From IMG/VR virus record IMGVR_UViG_2541047712_000002: DNA of 64,000 bases; one strand, written 5' to 3'. The DNA is from a virus (lineage: Duplodnaviria; Heunggongvirae; Uroviricota; Caudoviricetes). Below, in pieces: positions 33,001 through 42,000 of this stretch. A program made the position numbers. How positions within the stretch are numbered: position 1 is the stretch's first letter; every line of letters begins with the position of its first letter.

Positions 33001-36000
33001 AAGTTCCGTGGATGATTCTGGCTATTCGCAAGAATGTTGAGGGAGATGCCCCTTTCCATTTTAGCGAGATGAATGTGATCACACCTGATGGTTTCGAAAT
33101 GCCATACCTGGGCAGACCGTATGTATTTGGCGTATTCGATTGCTGGATGTTGTGTCGGGACTATTTGAAGCGTGAGTTTAACGTCGAACTAAACCCGAAC
33201 GCACACCTGCATATTCCATCGTGGTACACCGGCGATAACGACATTCTCGACCAGAACTACCGAAACGAAGGATTGGTACGGCTTGCGCCCGGAACAGAGC
33301 CTCAACGTGGGGACATCTTCTTTATCCAATACGGGAAAATGCCTGACCACTGCGCGGTTTATATCGGCGATGGAATGATTCTTCATCACCAGATCGACCG
33401 CCTTAGTTGTCGTGCTTATTACGGCGGAATGTATCAGAAACATACGACGCATCACTTGCGTCACAGAGACTTGCTCAAGGGAGATGAGACGTGTCTGAGT
33501 TAGTTCATGTGCAGCTTGGCGGCCCTATGGCCAAACATTTTGGCCGCCACTGGCATCTAAAGGTGCGTAATACAAAACAGGCTCTGGATTTAATTGAGGC
33601 TAACAAGCCTGGGTTTAAAGCATGGATGAAGCGCAACATCAAAACCTATGACAGATACCACATCCAGATCACCAATAAACAGGGTCACAAGTGGTCTGTG
33701 GACGAGAGTGAATATCAGATGATGGGGCAGTCTGACAACATTGCCAAAATACGCATTACCCCTGTTCCGCGAGGGAGCGGCGGATCTGCTTTTGGGTGGT
33801 TTCAGACGGTAGTAGGGGCCGCTTTGTTGGTTGTATCGGCGGTAATGATGCCTGCTTTAGCACCTCTCGGTTTGTCACTGATGATGGGCGGTATATCACA
33901 AATCATATCGCCGCAAGCCACTAACGAAAGTGTGAGACAGGCAGATAACTCGAACTCTTATTATTTCGACGGCCCTCAAAATACAGAAAACCAGGGCAAC
34001 CCAGTACAACTTATCTATGGCGAGGAAATTCTGGTTGGCTCACAGGTTGTGAGTTCTTCAATCACGATTGACCAGCTAATGTAAACAAGGATTTTTTGAA
34101 CATGGAACAGTTCAAGAAGAAAAAGCTACCGCTGTTTATTGCCGGTGCGGGTGGTAAAAAAAGCAGCAAAAGCTCCAGCCGTACACCGGTTGAAGCCGAC
34201 GATACCGTAAATTCTCGTGCAATGGCCGCTATCCTCGATCTTCTTGGGGAAGGGGTAATTGGCGGCTTAGTAAATGGCGCAAGATCTATTTTTATCGACG
34301 ATCTGCCGATTGTAAATGAAGACGGTTCCTCAAACTTCAGCGGAATCACATGGGATTTTCGCGACGGTTCGCAAGACCAGACTCCAATGTCTGGCTTTGA
34401 TTTCGTTGAAACGCCTAAATCCGTCAATATCCAGTTAAAAAAAACACATTATGTAACGGTTTCAATCGATAACGATGAAGCTGATCGGGTTCGTGTCATC
34501 ATGAAGTTTCCTTCTTTGCGAAGCATAGATAAAAAAACTGGTGACACGAACGGTACAACCGTTGAGTACAAGTTCCAGATAGCAAATGGCGACTCAACAT
34601 TTGTAGATGTGGTCGCAGAAGGTGAAAAAAGCGTTGGCATTAAGCTAACTGCAAAGAAGACAGGTGTTTATTACCGTAGCTATGAGCTGAAGCTGCCTAA
34701 GCCTGGACGCGCGTACAAGGTTCGTGTAGTCCGTATTACCGATGATAACAGCAGCCAGTATCTCTATAACGATACATGGGTGGACTCAATAGGTGAGATT
34801 GTAGATACACCGATGAACTACCCAAACTCTGTGCTGGTGGGTCTGAAGGTTAATTCTGAGCAATTTGGTAGCACCATGCCATCTCGTTCGTATTTGGTGC
34901 GTGGATTAAAAATTCGCGTGCCGTCAAACTACAACGAGGCCAGCAACACTTATGATGGTGTATGGGATGGCACTTTTAAGCTGTTGTCTTCATCCAATCC
35001 AGCCTGGATTCTTTTCGACCTGTTAACGAATGAACGATATGGGCTTGGCCAATTTGTATCAGAGTCCATGATTGACCTCGGCCAGCTGTACCAGATCGGT
35101 CGATATTGTGACGAAGAGGTTGATGATGGCTTTGGTGGCAAAGAGAAACGTTTTGCAATCAATACGCAGATTACCAGTCGACAGGACGCATACCGACTAA
35201 TTCAGGATATTGCTGGAGCATTCCGCGGCATGGTGTTTTGGGCTGGTGGGATGGTTAACATCATGCAGGATAGCCCATCAGATCCGGTAATGATGTTTAC
35301 CAACTCTAACGTCAAAGATGGATTGTTTACCTATAAAGGTTCTGCGCGTAAAGATCGCCCATCCGTTGCGCTCGTAACCTACAACAACAAGGAGGACGGT
35401 TATAAGCAAAACATCGAGTACGTTGAAGATCAGGACGCAATGCGCCGTTATGGTGAGCGTAAGACAGAAGTCGTAGCATTTGGCTGTACAAGCCGAGGGC
35501 AGGCTCACCGAGTTGGTTTGTGGCTTTTATATACCGCCAGAATGGAGTCGGATGTAATTACATTTACTGCCGGCTTAGATGCGTCATTCCTGATGCCTGG
35601 TGAAACCGTTCTGATTCAGAACAAATATCGCGCAGGAAAGCGCAACTCCGGTCGAATTGTGGAGTTTACCAAAAACAGCATCACACTCGATGCGCCTGTG
35701 TCATTAGCTAAAAGCGGCAGCTTTATTCGGATATTGAATCAGGAAGGCAAAATCGTTGAACGCGATGTTCTTGAAACTGGCGAAAACATAACAAAGGTTA
35801 CGTTTTCAAAAGCCCTGTCGTCAGCGGAAACGCCTGTTTTGAACGGTGTCTGGACAATTACAGAACCAGATCTCGAACCTATGCGCGTTCGCATCGTTAA
35901 CATCGCGCAGGGGGAAACGCCGGGTAGCTTTGACATCACCGCTGTTGAGAACAATCCGTCTAAATATGAGGCAATCGACAATGGTGCAACGCTGATCCCG

Positions 36001-39000: not shown

Positions 39001-42000
39001 GCCGAAAGCGAGAGTGCTGCAGCTGGTTCTGCGACTTCAGCAGCTGGATCAGCAACTGCTGCGGCTAACAGCCAGAAAGCCGCGAAGACGAGCGAAACTA
39101 ACGCAAAGTCCAGCCAGACGGCAGCGAAGACCAGCGAAACAAATGCCAAAGCCAGCGAAACTGCGGCGAAAAACAGTCAGGATGCAGCAGCCCAAAGCGA
39201 GAGTGCCGCAGCTGGTTCTGCAAGTGCGGCGGCTTCTTCTGCCTCTGCATCAGCCAACAGTCAAAAAGCTGCAAAAACCAGTGAAACCAACGCAAAGGCG
39301 AGCGAGACTGAGGCGGCTAACTCAGCGAAAGCATCGGCAGCAAGCCAGACGGCTGCAAAAGCAAGTGAAGACGCAGCCAGAGAGTATGCAAGCCAGGCTG
39401 CGGAGCCGTATAAACAAGTTTTGCAGCCGCTTCCCGATGTGTGGATACCGTTTAACGATTCACTGGATATGATTACGGGCTTTTCGCCGTCATATAAAAA
39501 GATTGTTATTGGTGATGATGAAATAACGATGCCTGGCGATAAGGTTGTAAAGTTTAAACGCGCATCAACTGCCACATATATCAATAAATCAGGCGTATTT
39601 AGTGTTGCTAAAATTGATGAGCCACGATTTGAAAAAGAAGGTTTATTGATTGAAGGACAGCGCACTAACTATTTTGTTAAATCCAATATCCCCGCTGAAT
39701 GGACGAGTACCAGCAATATCGATAAAACTAATAATGGTGTTGATGAATTTGGTTTTTCATATGCCAAAATGCGAACAAAAGATAATATGACAGGACAATC
39801 ATCTGCACTTAGTCTGCATACATGCAGTGCATCCCGGGGGATTGATGTTAGTGGCGATAATAAGTATTGCACTGTTTCATGCAGGGTTAAAGCTCCTGAT
39901 GGTCTTCGTTGTCGTTTGCGTTTTGAAAAATACGATGGGTCGGTTTATACATTTTTAGGAGATGCTTATTTAACTTTCGGAACTCTGATAATAGAAAAAA
40001 CTGGCGGAGCAGCCAATAGAATAGCAGCTACTGCAACTAAAGATCCGGTTACAGGGTGGATTTTCTATGAGGCAACTATAGAAGCTGTTGAAGGTGAAAC
40101 CTTAATTGGCGCAATGATTCAGTATGCGCCGAAAAAAGGTGGTGTAACTGAAGCGGGAGATTATATTTACCTTGCAACACCACAATTTGAAAACGGCGGA
40201 TGTGCTTCATCTTTTGTTATTACGACAACTGTACCCGCAACCCGCTCCAGTGATATGGTGACGATCCCAACTGAAAATAATATCTATAATAGACCGCTTA
40301 CGTGCCTGGTCGAGGTTAATAGAAATTGGGGCGATATTCCTCCTAATGTAGCACCGCGTATTTTTGATTTTTCTGGTGTGCCACCTATTGAGTCAATTAC
40401 ATACGCTTTTAACACAACTGAGAAATATTACGGTCAGCTTTATATGCAAACTTATAAAGCGTCGACAAGTACTTACGTTTCTAGTGTGTTTGCTGGTCGA
40501 ACTGATGTTCGAAAATTCATTGGTGGTTTTAATATTTATTCTGATGGTACTAAACGAGTAGTTTCTAACGGTGAGGCTACTAAAACCATGAAAACGGAGT
40601 GGACGGGCGTAAAAACACGGACCTTTATTCGAATTGGAGGTCAAGCCACATCGGGAACTCGTCATCTATTCGGCCATTTGAGAAATCTTCGTCTCTGGCA
40701 TAAAGAATTAACTGATGCGCAAATGGGGGAGAGTATTAAATGAAAGATTTAACGCTCAAATTTGCAGACAGGGCCGACTTTTCGGCCTTTATGGAGAGTA
40801 TTGGCTATTATGATGACGAGTCGATGCAGGATGATATTCTTATCGACGTGATAGGTAACGTGTACAAAGAAACCGGAGAACTGACTGAAGATGGCGAACC
40901 GGTATGTGTTAAGGAGGACGGATATTTTGTAAACGTGCGCATCATTAATGATGCAAAAAAATCGTCAATATTCGATAAATACGCGATTGTTGTTGAGCAT
41001 CAACTTCGTGGCTGGATGTGAGGGAGACAAATGGCTACATCGACAGTAATTCCAGGAGACATCACCACGTTAAAGGGAGATGTCAGTAAAGCCAAGGAAG
41101 ATATTTCCTCAATTAACGGAAAAGTATCAACGCTTCAGACTGATATGACCAGTGCAAAGCAGGATATCAGCACCAGATACACAAAAACTGAAGTTGATAA
41201 TAAGCTGAAAAACAAAGTGGAAGTGAACGATCTGGAAAGTGGTCGTTATGGTGGAGATTTTTACCCGCTGACTGGTCGTGAAGCGTTTTATTTGTGGGGA
41301 TTGGGCACGACTACAGCGGCGGCAAACCTTTATCTTAATCCTGACCCCGCAATTTCGTCTGTACTGCGGTCCACATCGTCTATCCGCTATAAACATTCAG
41401 TAGAGACGATAGATTCGGAGCACGCCGATCTCATTTTCAAGATGCGCCCTGTGTGGTACAGGTCGCAATGCGAAAATGACAGGCGCGATTGGGGATTCTA
41501 TGGATTGATTGCCGAGGAAGTAGGAGAAATTGCCCCTCAGTTTGTTCACTGGCGAGCAGCTAACGAGAATGATGCTCCTGAAGCTATTTCCAGCAATGGC
41601 CTTGTTGCCGAAGGTGTAATGTACGAACGTCTGGTTGTTCCACTGATTCACCATATCCAGAAGCTGACTGAAAGAGTTGATGAACTTGAGTCAGAATTAA
41701 AGTTGTTATTAACTTCCCGAAGCGATATCGGATAAAGGAGGAATAATGGATATAACACCTTTCCTTCATGCACTTTGTGCTGTGGCTGCGCAGGTACTGG
41801 TTGGTCTTTTTACCGGAAACTGGGCTTACGGGGCGATAGCCGGTTGTACGTTCTTCATTGCTCGTGAACATACCCAGGCAGAATATCGCTGGATTGAAAT
41901 GTTCGGGCATGGCAAGCGAATGAATATGCCGTGGTGGGGCGGTTTTGATCCGCGCGCGTGGGATGTAGCAAGTCTGATGGATTTTGCGATTCCACTTTTA

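What the first reader, a model, noticed from the sequence alone, without database searches (positions are those of the whole stretch)
34096..41735. Modular tail-tip region: J-like protein with an inserted coiled-coil repeat array and no C-terminal receptor domain, plus a separate repeat-rich fibre and a chaperone-domain protein
The J-like protein matches lambda gpJ through its conserved regions but contains about 1 kb of ~34-aa coiled-coil repeats (36.9-37.9 kb) and ends shortly after the conserved fibre-attachment region. Receptor binding is therefore probably delegated to the 795-aa fibre with SETNAK...AAAGSA tandem repeats and to the 41031-41735 protein with an S74-like C-terminal chaperone domain. 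Such repeat arrays are recombination hot spots for host-range switching.
Basis: partly seen in the sequence, partly recalled or inferred. Interest (0 to 1): 0.4.

Follow-up and report, generated by a model that had tools for sequence, protein, structure and literature searches.

The report
Shaft-bearing tail tip with clamp-on fibre
This is the host-recognition end of the tail of an SSU5-like phage-plasmid of E. coli: its central fibre protein has a long helical shaft and no receptor-binding end, like phage T1 and the F-type pyocins, and the neighbouring side fibre, whose tip has been swapped with lambda-like prophages, probably docks on that shaft and does the receptor recognition.

Summary
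The J-like protein (34096-38262, probable ATG at 34102) runs parallel to lambda gpJ up to aa 862. It then carries a ~370-aa proline-free helical insert and ends 18 aa after the Phage_Tail_Tip domain, without lambda's C-terminal receptor-binding domain. Only the last 165 aa of the insert are clear tandem repeats: 5 copies of 33 aa, not 34.

This architecture is known. It matches T1 gp33 and the F-type pyocin central fibre, solved in 2025-26. There the helical shaft carries the side fibres and, in F7 pyocin, switches to a beta-prism.

The first ~120 aa of the 795-aa fibre are homologous to the shaft-docking domain of the F2-pyocin side fibre (profile E=1e-16). Residues 167-795 are 96% identical to a lambdoid Stf. 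The C-terminus folds as two LamG-like lectin domains.

Recombination breakpoints lie at the edges of both repeat arrays, and 33-aa copy number varies from 3 to 10 among relatives. The 234-aa S74 protein is a real gene (dN/dS 0.11-0.15) of unknown role. Unlike half of its cap-type relatives, this element has no small distal receptor-binding-protein/Cor locus.

Verdict: a new member of a known kind, of moderate interest.

The parts
34096..38262 (+). Central fibre / tail-tip protein J (1388 aa from TTG; probable start is the ATG at 34102)
   Evidence: Pfam, PHROG and NCBIfam hits. 32% identity to lambda J over aa 20-862. PDB sequence hits to F2-pyocin central fibre, T1 gp33 and lambda J.
36682..37791 (+). 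Alpha-helical shaft (aa 863-1232), inserted relative to lambda J between lambda residues 836 and 841
   Evidence: Gap in the BLASTP alignment. No Pro and only 7 Gly within aa 863-1232 (10 in the scanned aa 840-1240). AF2 predicts helix for aa 837-1220. aa 1137-1232 align to the coiled-coil part of the F2-pyocin central fibre. The SxSxxMxxLxS motif occurs 19 times against 6.3 +/- 2.3 in shuffles.
37288..37782 (+). Five tandem 33-aa repeats (aa 1065-1229), consensus ..DISAAI..E..AR..AD.AL...I..L.A.
   Evidence: Autocorrelation at lags 33 and 66. Indels in whole 33-aa units among relatives. 3-10 copies in 72 related J proteins.
37801..38205 (+). Phage_Tail_Tip (central straight fibre, beta-rich) domain, aa 1236-1370
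   Evidence: PF09327, E=7e-42. Beta strands in the AF2 model. Nearly invariant among SSU5-like elements.
38164..38262 (+). Short C-terminal cap (...INGNSGGNGRLVINGQRIDVYDDNNVLRVRIGQL) in place of a receptor-binding domain
   Evidence: The same ending occurs in T1 gp33 and DEV gp56. Relatives P0307, P0317 and P0324 diverge at aa ~1356-1362 and carry Ig_GpJ_C instead.
38314..38334 (+). 7-bp-stem hairpin in the J-fibre spacer, no T run
   Evidence: Read directly from the sequence. No terminator call above chance.
38356..40743 (+). Side fibre (795 aa), a chimera of three modules
   Evidence: PHROG 1419. Mosaic comparisons.
38356..38820 (+). Fibre N-terminal anchor (aa 1-155): OB-type domain plus stem, homologous to the shaft-docking domain of the F2-pyocin side fibre PyoF13
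   Evidence: Single sequence against PDB: 25ve_A, E=0.0024. Profile of 22 diverse homologues: 25ve_A residues 1-117, E=1.1e-16. 75% identity to the SSU5 gp21 N-terminus. 2303 representative clusters carry the domain.
38794..39381 (+). Heptad (7-aa, 21-nt) repeat array, 28 units with a 63-aa super-repeat (SETNAK / AAAGSA)
   Evidence: The junction between the phage-plasmid-type and lambdoid-type sequence lies at its start, at 38782-38858.
39550..40740 (+). Fibre C-terminal receptor-binding region: two LamG/ConA-like jelly rolls
   Evidence: AF2 pLDDT 76.6, pTM 0.76. Foldseek PDB hits: Pa193/E217 tail fibre, laminin LG pairs, BoNT Hc, CBM40. NCBIfam GTA_spike_fiber at aa 431-631. 2991 homologues, mostly on lambda-Stf-type anchors.
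40740..41021 (+). orf93, translationally coupled to the fibre; candidate cognate assembly factor
   Evidence: phrog_1361. dN/dS 0.16-0.26. A 39%-identical homologue follows a 52%-identical fibre C-terminus in L066 and PhiR41_1. No PDB relative.
41031..41735 (+). orf234: N-terminal coiled-coil-like segment, short tip, and S74 intramolecular-chaperone domain (aa 116-172; nt 41376-41546)
   Evidence: PF13884. Alignment to a T5-type LTF C-terminus with Ser115/Lys120 in the dyad positions. dN/dS 0.11-0.15. 49-57% identity to the covalent C-termini of OB-anchored fibres.
41746..42030 (+). orf94, a small hydrophobic protein that ends the exchanged cassette
   Evidence: phrog_1443, function unknown. 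dN/dS 0.09-0.21. Homology to lambdoid PhiR49_1 runs to 41987.

Best explanation
The region encodes the host-recognition apparatus of an SSU5-like phage-plasmid, built on the T1 gp33 / F-type-pyocin plan rather than the lambda plan.

Shown:
- J forms the conserved tail-tip hub. It then extends into a ~370-aa helical shaft, whose distal half is five 33-aa repeats.
- The shaft is followed by a beta-rich straight-fibre domain that ends in a 30-aa cap with no receptor-binding domain.
- The next gene is a side fibre. Its first ~120 residues are homologous to the OB-plus-stem domain by which the F2/F7-pyocin side fibres clamp onto the central fibre's coiled-coil shaft.
- The rest of the fibre is a heptad-repeat stalk plus two LamG-like lectin domains. 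This part is a cassette, together with orf93, orf234 and orf94, that is 95% identical to the Stf region of a lambdoid prophage. There it is grafted onto a lambda-type anchor instead.

Inferred:
- Three fibre trimers dock on the J shaft.
- Their LamG-like tips bind a surface glycan or other receptor and provide the element's host specificity.
- Host range evolves by recombination at the edges of the two repeat arrays and by gain or loss of whole 33-aa units.
- orf93 is probably the fibre's cognate assembly factor.
- orf234 is a free-standing fibre tip with its own self-cleaving chaperone. Where it attaches is unknown.
For: - J architecture and missing RBD. The same plan occurs in SSU5, Cyrano, PhiR41_1 and TUM12368.
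- Homology of the shaft and tip to T1 gp33 (9l9p_S, same repeats, same ...LRVQIGRL end), the F2-pyocin central fibre (25vf_A) and DEV gp56 (9ze4_N).
- Helical prediction for aa 837-1220.
- The fold-switch motif SxSxxMxxLxS of He et al. (PMC12874032) is enriched: 19 observed against 6.3 +/- 2.3 in shuffles, about three per 33-aa repeat.
- Fibre N-terminus against PyoF13: E=0.0024 with the single sequence, E=1.1e-16 with a profile.
- Side fibres dock on the coiled-coil shaft in F2 and F7 pyocins (PMC13455828 section 2.3; PMC12874032 section 5).
- OB-anchored fibres lie next to a Phage_Tail_Tip protein in every SSU5-like locus that includes the upstream region (73 of 79; the other six are cut off), and the 72 J ORFs examined all carry 3-10 shaft repeats. 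The same adjacency holds in 4 of 4 sampled distant contexts, two of them podovirus-like.
- Lambda and PhiR49_1 J have no shaft and use a PF08400 anchor.
- Chimeric fibre and breakpoints.
- C-terminal fold.
- No phrog_425/Cor-type RBP locus in the window, although 20 of 41 cap-type relatives have one.
- Cyrano has only J plus one fibre before the holin.
- SSU5 uses the LPS core through its fibre adhesin (cited in PMC12312913).
Against: - Docking on the shaft is inferred from domain homology and gene adjacency only. No complex was modelled or observed.
- The same OB-type domain is annotated in one PDB entry as part of a 'distal tail protein' (23gd_B), so it may bind other partners.
- The window's shaft is more than twice as long as the pyocin's, and its docking site cannot be located.
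- AF2 monomer gave only helix, so it says nothing about a beta-prism state.
- In F-pyocins, T1-like phages and DEV, a separately encoded distal receptor-binding protein on the cap is essential. Its apparent absence here could mean that an unrecognised one exists.
- The receptor of the LamG-like tip is unknown. Foldseek scores are modest (E ~6e-6, TM ~0.3) and the AF2 alignment was shallow (26 sequences).
Confidence: 0.6

Rival explanations
1. A distal receptor-binding protein does exist and sits on the J cap, as in T1-like phages, DEV (gp55/gp54) and F-pyocins (PyoF11/12). Here it would be supplied by orf93 and/or orf234, or by an unrecognised gene. The side fibre would then give only reversible primary adsorption.
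For: - The cap is conserved with DEV gp56, which recruits gp55/gp54 (PMC12892993).
- 20 of 41 cap-type relatives carry a phrog_557/phrog_425/Cor trio, and 0 of 8 relatives with a C-terminally extended J do (Fisher p=0.015). This parallels the Drexlerviridae pattern (PMC8594841).
- orf93, orf234 and orf94 occupy the same slot between the fibre and the holin.
Against: - The window has no homologue of either trio.
- orf93, orf234 and orf94 travel with the fibre C-terminus and also occur in lambdoid PhiR49_1, whose J has its own Ig_GpJ_C domain.
- orf234-like sequence is the covalent C-terminus of side fibres in sister elements.
- Cyrano has no gene other than the fibre between J and the holin.
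Confidence: 0.2
2. The shaft is only a passive spacer that sets the reach of the tail tip through O-antigen or capsule. The fibre attaches elsewhere (distal tail protein or collar, as lambda Stf or T5 LTF do), and there is no fold switch.
For: - Shaft length varies in whole repeat units among relatives.
- OB-type domains decorate distal tail proteins in T5 (PMC13455828), and one PDB chain with this domain is named 'distal tail protein'.
Against: - The shaft repeats carry the specific small/Leu/charged pattern, with Arg-Asp pairs, described for the fold-switching segment (PMC12874032).
- The best structural relative of the anchor is the shaft-bound PyoF13.
- Anchor type correlates with J type: OB with a shaft, PF08400 without one.
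Confidence: 0.15
3. orf234 (and orf93) are non-functional leftovers of a displaced longer fibre gene.
For: phrog_3299 (1385 aa) matches the fibre N-terminus at its start and orf234 at its end. Sister fibres end in orf234-like sequence.
Against: - dN/dS is 0.11-0.15 for orf234 and 0.16-0.26 for orf93 across three contexts. The frames are intact, with an ATG preceded by GGGAG.
- The catalytic Ser and Lys are retained.
- The genes are conserved as a unit in lambdoid phages and phage-plasmids.
Confidence: 0.05

Closest known systems
Phage T1 central fibre gp33 (PDB 9L9P; PMC11945409) and the J-like proteins of Drexlerviridae
   Same: Lambda-like hub and FN3 part, then the same AR..AD-type 33-aa repeats, then a Phage_Tail_Tip domain ending ...LRV.IG.L with no Ig_GpJ_C domain. 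The lateral fibres and depolymerases of T1-like phages (7LZJ) share the OB-type N-terminal anchor.
   Different: T1-like phages encode a small receptor-binding protein and a Cor-type exclusion protein next to J (PMC8594841); this window has neither. The shaft here is longer: 1388 aa against 1172 aa in total.
F-type pyocin central fibre (PyoF10/PA0641; PDB 25VF) and side fibre PyoF13 (PDB 25VE); F7 pyocin fold switch (PMC13455828, PMC12874032)
   Same: A central fibre with a coiled-coil shaft and a beta-prism end lacking a receptor-binding domain. The side fibre's N-terminal OB-plus-stem domain is homologous (E=1e-16). The small/Leu/charged motif is present in the shaft.
   Different: The pyocin shaft is ~163 aa against ~370 aa here. 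Pyocins need PyoF11/12 on the fibre end and PyoF14/15 chaperones. The pyocin side-fibre tip is R-pyocin-like, not LamG-like. This element is a complete phage-plasmid, not a tailocin.
Lambda gpJ and side tail fibre Stf
   Same: Gene order M-L-K-I-J-fibre. J is 32% identical to lambda J over 860 aa. The fibre's aa 167-795 are 96% identical to a lambdoid Stf.
   Different: No Ig_J/Ig_J_second hits, no C-terminal receptor-binding domain, and a 370-aa shaft insert. The fibre anchor is OB-type rather than PF08400/Ig-like.
Salmonella phage SSU5 gp20-gp25 (type member of the phage-plasmid group)
   Same: J 1385 aa with identical architecture and five repeats. The fibre N-terminus is 75% identical.
   Different: The SSU5 fibre is 1260 aa with Gp34_trimer and S74 domains. 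It is followed by a gp38-like adhesin and a phrog_557/phrog_425/Cor trio, all absent here.
Intramolecular chaperone (S74) domains of endosialidase, T5 pb1 and other fibres
   Same: PF13884 hit above the cut-off. Ser and Lys lie five residues apart at the predicted cleavage site.
   Different: Here the domain sits in a free-standing 234-aa protein with only ~115 residues upstream, not at the end of a long fibre.

Membership tests
Lambda TipJ (gpJ) family | Conserved hub and FN3 domains (FNIII-A_GpJ, Phage-tail_3, fn3) and a Phage_Tail_Tip domain, in an M-L-K-I-J gene order | tested here: met
   neighbours.
Lambda TipJ (gpJ) family | C-terminal receptor-binding domain (Ig_GpJ_C, PF12421) | tested here: not met
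   Absent here and present in lambda and PhiR49_1 J. The NCBIfam lambda_TipJ score is 539.6 against a cut-off of 1950.
Shaft-bearing central fibres (T1 gp33 / F-pyocin PyoF10 class) | Long alpha-helical (coiled-coil) segment between the FN3 region and the beta-prism end | tested here: met
   Insert relative to lambda J, AF2 helix at aa 837-1220, and sequence homology to T1 gp33 and the F2 central fibre across this segment. The trimeric coiled-coil state itself was not modelled.
Shaft-bearing central fibres (T1 gp33 / F-pyocin PyoF10 class) | Ends in a beta-rich domain without a receptor-binding domain | tested here: met
Shaft-bearing central fibres (T1 gp33 / F-pyocin PyoF10 class) | Fold-switch sequence pattern SxSxxMxxLxS with Arg/Asp pairs four residues apart | tested here: met
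   19 matches against 6.3 +/- 2.3 in shuffles, and AR...D in four of the five clear repeats, with VR...D in the fifth.
Shaft-bearing central fibres (T1 gp33 / F-pyocin PyoF10 class) | Coiled-coil to beta-prism transition on receptor binding | not testable with these tools
   Needs a multimer prediction with varied MSA depth, or cryo-EM. The monomer AF2 model gave only helix.
Shaft-bearing central fibres (T1 gp33 / F-pyocin PyoF10 class) | Separately encoded distal receptor-binding protein(s) next to the gene (PyoF11/12, T1-type RBP plus Cor, DEV gp55/54) | tested here: not met
   The window has no homologue of the phrog_557/phrog_425/Cor trios found in 20 of 41 cap-type relatives. orf93 has no PDB relative.
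PyoF13-type OB-anchored side fibres | N-terminal OB-plus-stem domain | tested here: met
   25ve_A residues 1-117, E=1.1e-16 with a 22-sequence profile.
PyoF13-type OB-anchored side fibres | Encoded beside a shaft-bearing central fibre | tested here: met
   Directly downstream of J here and in every related locus that includes the upstream region (73 of 79); 4 of 4 distant contexts.
PyoF13-type OB-anchored side fibres | Physical attachment to the coiled-coil shaft | not testable with these tools
The claim rests on homology to the solved pyocin complexes.
Peptidase_S74 intramolecular chaperone | PF13884 domain with a Ser-Lys dyad at the cleavage site | tested here: met
   27.5 bits against a cut-off of 22. 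S115...K120 aligns with the SG.EYK of a T5-type fibre. The dyad assignment rests on my own knowledge of endoNF and T5 pb1.
Peptidase_S74 intramolecular chaperone | Located at the C-terminus of the fibre or spike it folds | tested here: not met
   Stand-alone 234-aa ORF. In sister elements the homologous segment is the fibre's own C-terminus.
Lambda-type side tail fibre (Stf) | Prophage tail fibre N-terminal domain (PF08400) | tested here: not met
   No Pfam hit. The N-terminus is unrelated to that of PhiR49_1 Stf, while aa 167-795 are 96% identical to it.

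The most novel reading that the evidence does not exclude
This element, like Cyrano and about half of the cap-type SSU5-like phage-plasmids, has a central fibre with no receptor-binding module of any kind. On this reading, the side fibres clamped on the metastable J shaft would be both the only receptor sensor and the trigger. Receptor binding would pull the OB clamps off the shaft, and that release alone would let the coiled coil refold into a beta-prism and open the tail. 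The number of 33-aa units (3-10) would tune reach or stored energy to the fibre set.
Probability: 0.2. Interest if true: 0.65.

Novelty: new member of a known kind. Interest (0 to 1): 0.4.

Why it matters
Host range of SSU5-like phage-plasmids, which spread resistance genes in Enterobacteria, is described as poorly understood (PMC9600943).

- **Where specificity lies.** Their tail tips follow the T1/F-pyocin plan. Specificity therefore appears to sit in an OB-anchored fibre whose tip is exchangeable with lambdoid prophages. In some relatives it also sits in a small RBP/Cor locus or in a C-terminal extension of J.
- **Engineering rule.** The anchor type must match the J type: OB anchor with a shaft, PF08400 anchor without one.
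- **Test system.** The coiled-coil to beta-prism fold switch has so far been shown experimentally only for a pyocin. These elements offer a family of replicating phages, with natural variation in shaft length, in which to test it.

Tried and rejected
- TRF and seed-based repeat search found no DNA-level tandem repeat in the J shaft. The repeats are visible only at the protein level, so simple replication slippage on near-identical DNA repeats is unlikely today.
- The promoter/terminator scan of 33.4-42.6 kb gave nothing above shuffled expectation.
- orf93 against PDB gave only chance hits. Pfam found nothing for orf93, orf94 or the fibre.
- The word-indexed homologue search with the fibre N-terminus returned only close relatives, so the exhaustive HMMER search was used instead.
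- The supplements of PMC12874032 are not held, so I could not check whether SSU5-like J proteins were among its 24 predicted fold-switchers.
- The SSU5 receptor paper (PMC3911222) is not held and is cited second-hand.
- Monomer AF2 of J aa 835-1388 cannot speak to the trimeric coiled-coil or beta-prism states, and no fold search was run on it.
- The reading of orf234 as a pseudogene remnant was rejected on dN/dS.

Full report
**Identity of the window.** The region belongs to an SSU5-like phage-plasmid of E. coli. The 7.6-kb query is 96-97% identical over 86-88% of its length to ~106-113-kb E. coli plasmids such as pMTY12368_pLF82. It matches phage-plasmids PhiR41_1, Cyrano and SSU5 in part. 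Gene order upstream is tape measure, M, L, K (JAB + NlpC/P60), I, then J.

**Check of the observation: J.** The ORF 34096-38262 encodes 1388 aa counted from a TTG. Annotated relatives start at the ATG two codons later. All residue numbers below use the 1388-aa frame.
- Pfam finds FNIII-A_GpJ, Phage-tail_3, fn3 and Phage_Tail_Tip (aa 1236-1370), and nothing after it.
- Lambda J, scanned the same way, has Phage_Tail_Tip at 845-972 followed by Ig_GpJ_C, the 'C-terminal receptor binding domain', at 1001-1132.
- BLASTP against lambda J is colinear over aa 20-862 (lambda 2-836) and resumes at aa 1233 (lambda 841). About 370 aa (nt 36682-37791) are therefore inserted at one point.
- The insert has no proline and only 7 glycines (10 glycines in the scanned aa 840-1240). 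AlphaFold2 (monomer, 35-sequence alignment, pLDDT 70) predicts aa 837-1220 as helix with one break near aa 1048-1050, followed by a beta-rich end.
- Protein autocorrelation peaks at 33 and 66 residues, not 34. It does so only in aa 1040-1240. Five copies in register span aa 1065-1229, and the proximal 200 aa are aperiodic.
- At the DNA level the copies are too diverged for TRF.

**Check of the observation: fibre and orf234.** The 795-aa fibre has 28 heptads in perfect register (aa 147-342) with a 63-aa super-repeat. The 234-aa ORF has a Peptidase_S74 domain above Pfam's cut-off.

**What kind of J this is.** Sequence search of the PDB gives the F2-pyocin central fibre (25vf_A), T1 gp33 (9l9p_S) and lambda J for the N-terminal 800 aa.
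- For the C-terminal 367 aa, T1 gp33 shows the same AR..AD-type repeats and the same ending (...LRVQIGRL at 1168/1172).
- The F2-pyocin fibre aligns at residues 970-1193 to J aa 1137-1360.
- DEV gp56 aligns to the last 62 residues.
- The T1 paper reports that the gp33 C-terminus (821-1172) is a long flexible alpha/beta fibre (PMC11945409).

Two 2026 studies of F-type pyocins bear directly on this region.
- The segment is a trimeric coiled-coil 'alpha-helical shaft', and three side-fibre trimers attach to it through their N-terminal OB domain and stem (PMC13455828 section 2.3; PMC12874032 section 5).
- In F7 pyocin the 163-residue coiled coil refolds into a beta-prism on target binding. Each strand carries a signature SxSxxMxxLxS, with Arg/Asp pairs four residues apart (PMC12874032 sections 6 and 10).

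In the window's shaft that pattern, in either orientation, occurs 19 times against 6.3 +/- 2.3 in 1000 residue shuffles (maximum 14). That is about three per 33-aa repeat. The Arg-Asp spacing appears as AR...D in four of the five clear repeats, with VR...D in the fifth. The 'inserted repeat array' is therefore the defining feature of a known class of central fibres, not a peculiarity of this element.

**The end of J is modular.** Among SSU5-like relatives the last ~150 aa are nearly invariant, while the fibre genes differ. Database relatives P0307, P0317 and P0324 share the shaft and tip up to aa ~1356-1362. They then carry an Ig_GpJ_C domain in place of the 30-aa cap.

I examined 79 viral-contig loci retrieved with the fibre N-terminus, plus the named phages, restricting the count to loci complete from the J end to the holin.
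- Forty-one have the cap. Of these, 20 also carry a trio of small genes: phrog_557, phrog_425 and a Cor-type lipoprotein (phrog_1119). The trio lies either between J and the fibre or after the fibre, as in SSU5.
- Eight have a J extended by 111-155 aa at the C-terminus, and none of these has the trio (Fisher p=0.015).
- This mirrors the Drexlerviridae rule. There, a small receptor-binding protein plus an exclusion protein lies next to the J homologue, or the locus is replaced by a C-terminal extension of J (PMC8594841).
- The window, like Cyrano, PhiR41_1 and pMTY12368_pLF82, has the cap and no trio (tblastn).

**The fibre is a three-part chimera.**
- Residues 1-155 are 75% identical to the SSU5 gp21 N-terminus, and nothing else in the two proteins matches.
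- Residues 167-795 are 96% identical to residues 184-812 of the Stf of the lambdoid phage PhiR49_1. That protein's own N-terminus is the lambda-type anchor, and its J has no shaft and a normal Ig_GpJ_C domain.
- The N-terminal 165 aa hit the F2-pyocin side fibre PyoF13 (25ve_A) at E=0.0024 as a single sequence.
- An exhaustive HMMER search finds 2303 representative clusters with this domain. It almost always sits at the N-terminus of proteins of 300-1700 aa.
- A profile of 22 diverse members hits PyoF13 residues 1-117 at E=1.1e-16. It also hits the N-termini of a T1-like phage depolymerase (7lzj/7vyv) and a chain named 'distal tail protein' (23gd_B).
- The C-terminal 451 aa were modelled (pLDDT 76.6, pTM 0.76) as two jelly rolls. 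Their best PDB matches are the Pa193/E217 tail fibre, laminin LG and neurexin LNS pairs, botulinum toxin Hc and CBM40 sialic-acid-binding modules.
- NCBIfam sees a GTA head-spike-fibre domain at aa 431-631, and a distant homologue carries Laminin_G_3.
- The same C-terminal module occurs in 2991 database proteins, mostly on PF08400 anchors.

**Linkage of anchor type and J type.** In every SSU5-like locus that includes the upstream region (73 of 79; the other six are cut off), the OB-anchored fibre follows a J gene. The 72 J ORFs examined all carry 3-10 shaft repeats.

Four distant OB-anchored fibres (30-50% identity) were looked up in their contigs.
- Two directly follow J genes of 1913 and 1309 aa. 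One has four recognisable repeats, and the other has a ~190-aa Pro-free insert that aligns to the window's shaft.
- Two lie two genes from 1370- and 1501-aa Phage_Tail_Tip proteins with 7-8 repeats, in P22-portal/SU10-adaptor podovirus-like prophages.
- Lambda and PhiR49_1 J give no repeat hits.

This supports, but does not prove, that the anchor docks on the shaft.

**Recombination.** BLASTN of 31.5-43.6 kb against relatives places the identity breaks as follows.
- At 36707-36729 (J aa ~870, the start of the shaft) for Cyrano and PhiR41_1.
- At 38782-38858 (fibre aa 142-167, the start of the heptad array) for SSU5, Cyrano and PhiR49_1.
- At 39674 and 40626 inside the fibre for pMTY12368_pLF82. 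That element differs only in aa ~440-757, so the first lectin-like domain is a swap unit of its own.
- At 41987-42131, just before the holin.

The cassette 38841-41987 is 94.8% identical to PhiR49_1. Alignment of five J proteins shows indels in whole multiples of 33 aa: window, SSU5 and TUM12368 have 5 clear copies, PhiR41_1 has 9 and Cyrano has 10. A repeat HMM gives 3-10 copies in 72 J ORFs, with modes at 6 and 10.

**The small genes.** orf93 overlaps the fibre stop codon (ATGA), and orf234 has a GGGAG Shine-Dalgarno sequence.
- Pairwise dN/dS across the window, pMTY12368_pLF82 and PhiR49_1 is 0.16-0.26 for orf93 and 0.11-0.15 for orf234. For orf94 it is 0.09-0.21, using PhiR41_1 in place of PhiR49_1 because the PhiR49_1 orf94 differs in length. 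All three are maintained genes.
- orf234 is 49-57% identical to the covalent C-termini of OB-anchored fibres of sister elements (P0029, P0030; L012, L013 and others). This explains why phrog_3299 matches the fibre at its start and orf234 at its end.
- Its Ser115 and Lys120 align with the cleavage motif of a T5-type fibre.
- A 39%-identical orf93 homologue follows a 52%-identical fibre C-terminus in L066 and PhiR41_1, without orf234. orf93 therefore co-varies with the lectin-like tip and is probably its assembly partner, while orf234 is an optional add-on.
- Neither has a solved relative that reveals function. orf94 is a small hydrophobic protein of unknown function (phrog_1443).

**Mechanism, with status.**
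- Shown: the domain architectures, the homologies, the mosaic structure, and the absence of a receptor-binding domain or RBP locus.
- Inferred from solved homologues: trimeric coiled-coil shaft, and side fibres clamped on it by the OB domain and stem.
- Inferred from fold and context: the LamG-like tip binds the primary, and possibly the only, receptor. SSU5 itself depends on the LPS core through its fibre adhesin (cited in PMC12312913).
- Speculative: a coiled-coil to beta-prism switch triggered by fibre release.

**Novelty and score.** The architecture has been known since 2025-26 for T1 and the F-pyocins, and SSU5-like J proteins have long been in the databases. What is added here:
- SSU5-like phage-plasmids are assigned to this class.
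- The side-fibre anchor is shown to be homologous to PyoF13.
- The J end is shown to exist in three states, with this element in the 'bare cap' state.
- The cassette exchange with lambdoid prophages is mapped.

That makes it a new member of a known kind. It is useful for predicting the host range of phage-plasmids, which the field calls poorly understood (PMC9600943), but it is not surprising to a specialist. Interest 0.4.

Noticed in passing
window 31-1140 (+): The window opens inside a metG gene. The ORF is the C-terminal 369 aa of methionyl-tRNA synthetase (tRNA-synt_1g, Anticodon_3, tRNA_bind). The closest plasmid, pMTY12368_pLF82, is annotated with metG and apbC. A phage-plasmid carrying a chromosomal-type aminoacyl-tRNA synthetase is unusual.
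   Followed up: no
window 38314-38334: A perfect 7-bp-stem, 7-nt-loop hairpin (GGTGGGC ATGGAAC GCCCACC) lies in the 93-nt spacer between J and the fibre gene. It has no T run, so it is not a canonical terminator. It could be an RNA processing or stability element.
   Followed up: partly
L002 16614-17721; L054 7612-8929; 20 of the loci L008-L086: SSU5-like elements carry a trio of small genes: phrog_557, phrog_425 and a Cor-type lipoprotein. The trio lies either between J and the fibre or after the fibre, and only when J ends in the short cap (20 of 41 against 0 of 8 with an extended J, p=0.015). It is a likely distal receptor-binding module plus exclusion protein, as in T1-like phages. It is absent from this window.
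   Followed up: partly
window 39675-40625 versus L001 11580-12478: The closest plasmid differs from the window only in fibre aa ~440-757, the first LamG-like domain, and is 97-98% identical on both sides. This is a domain-sized host-range swap inside the fibre tip.
   Followed up: partly
L087 8001-16223; L090 9001-16611: OB-anchored fibres and Phage_Tail_Tip proteins with the same 33-aa repeats also occur together in prophages with a P22-type portal and an SU10-type adaptor. These are podovirus-like tails, so the shaft/anchor pair is not confined to siphoviruses.
   Followed up: partly
proteins P0068, P0086, P0123, P0147: Some database proteins contain 4-13 tandem copies of the first ~70 aa of the OB anchor domain in the middle of 1000-1600-aa chains. 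No explanation.
   Followed up: no
window 43663-44500 (-): By synteny with the annotated plasmid, the 173-aa and 102-aa ORFs just after the lysis genes correspond to a GNAT-family (TacT/KacT-like) acetyltransferase toxin and a TacA-family antitoxin.
   Followed up: no
window 8000-12000 and 56000-64000: GC content drops to 33-40%, against 44-51% over most of the rest of the window. This suggests accessory or recently acquired DNA.
   Followed up: no
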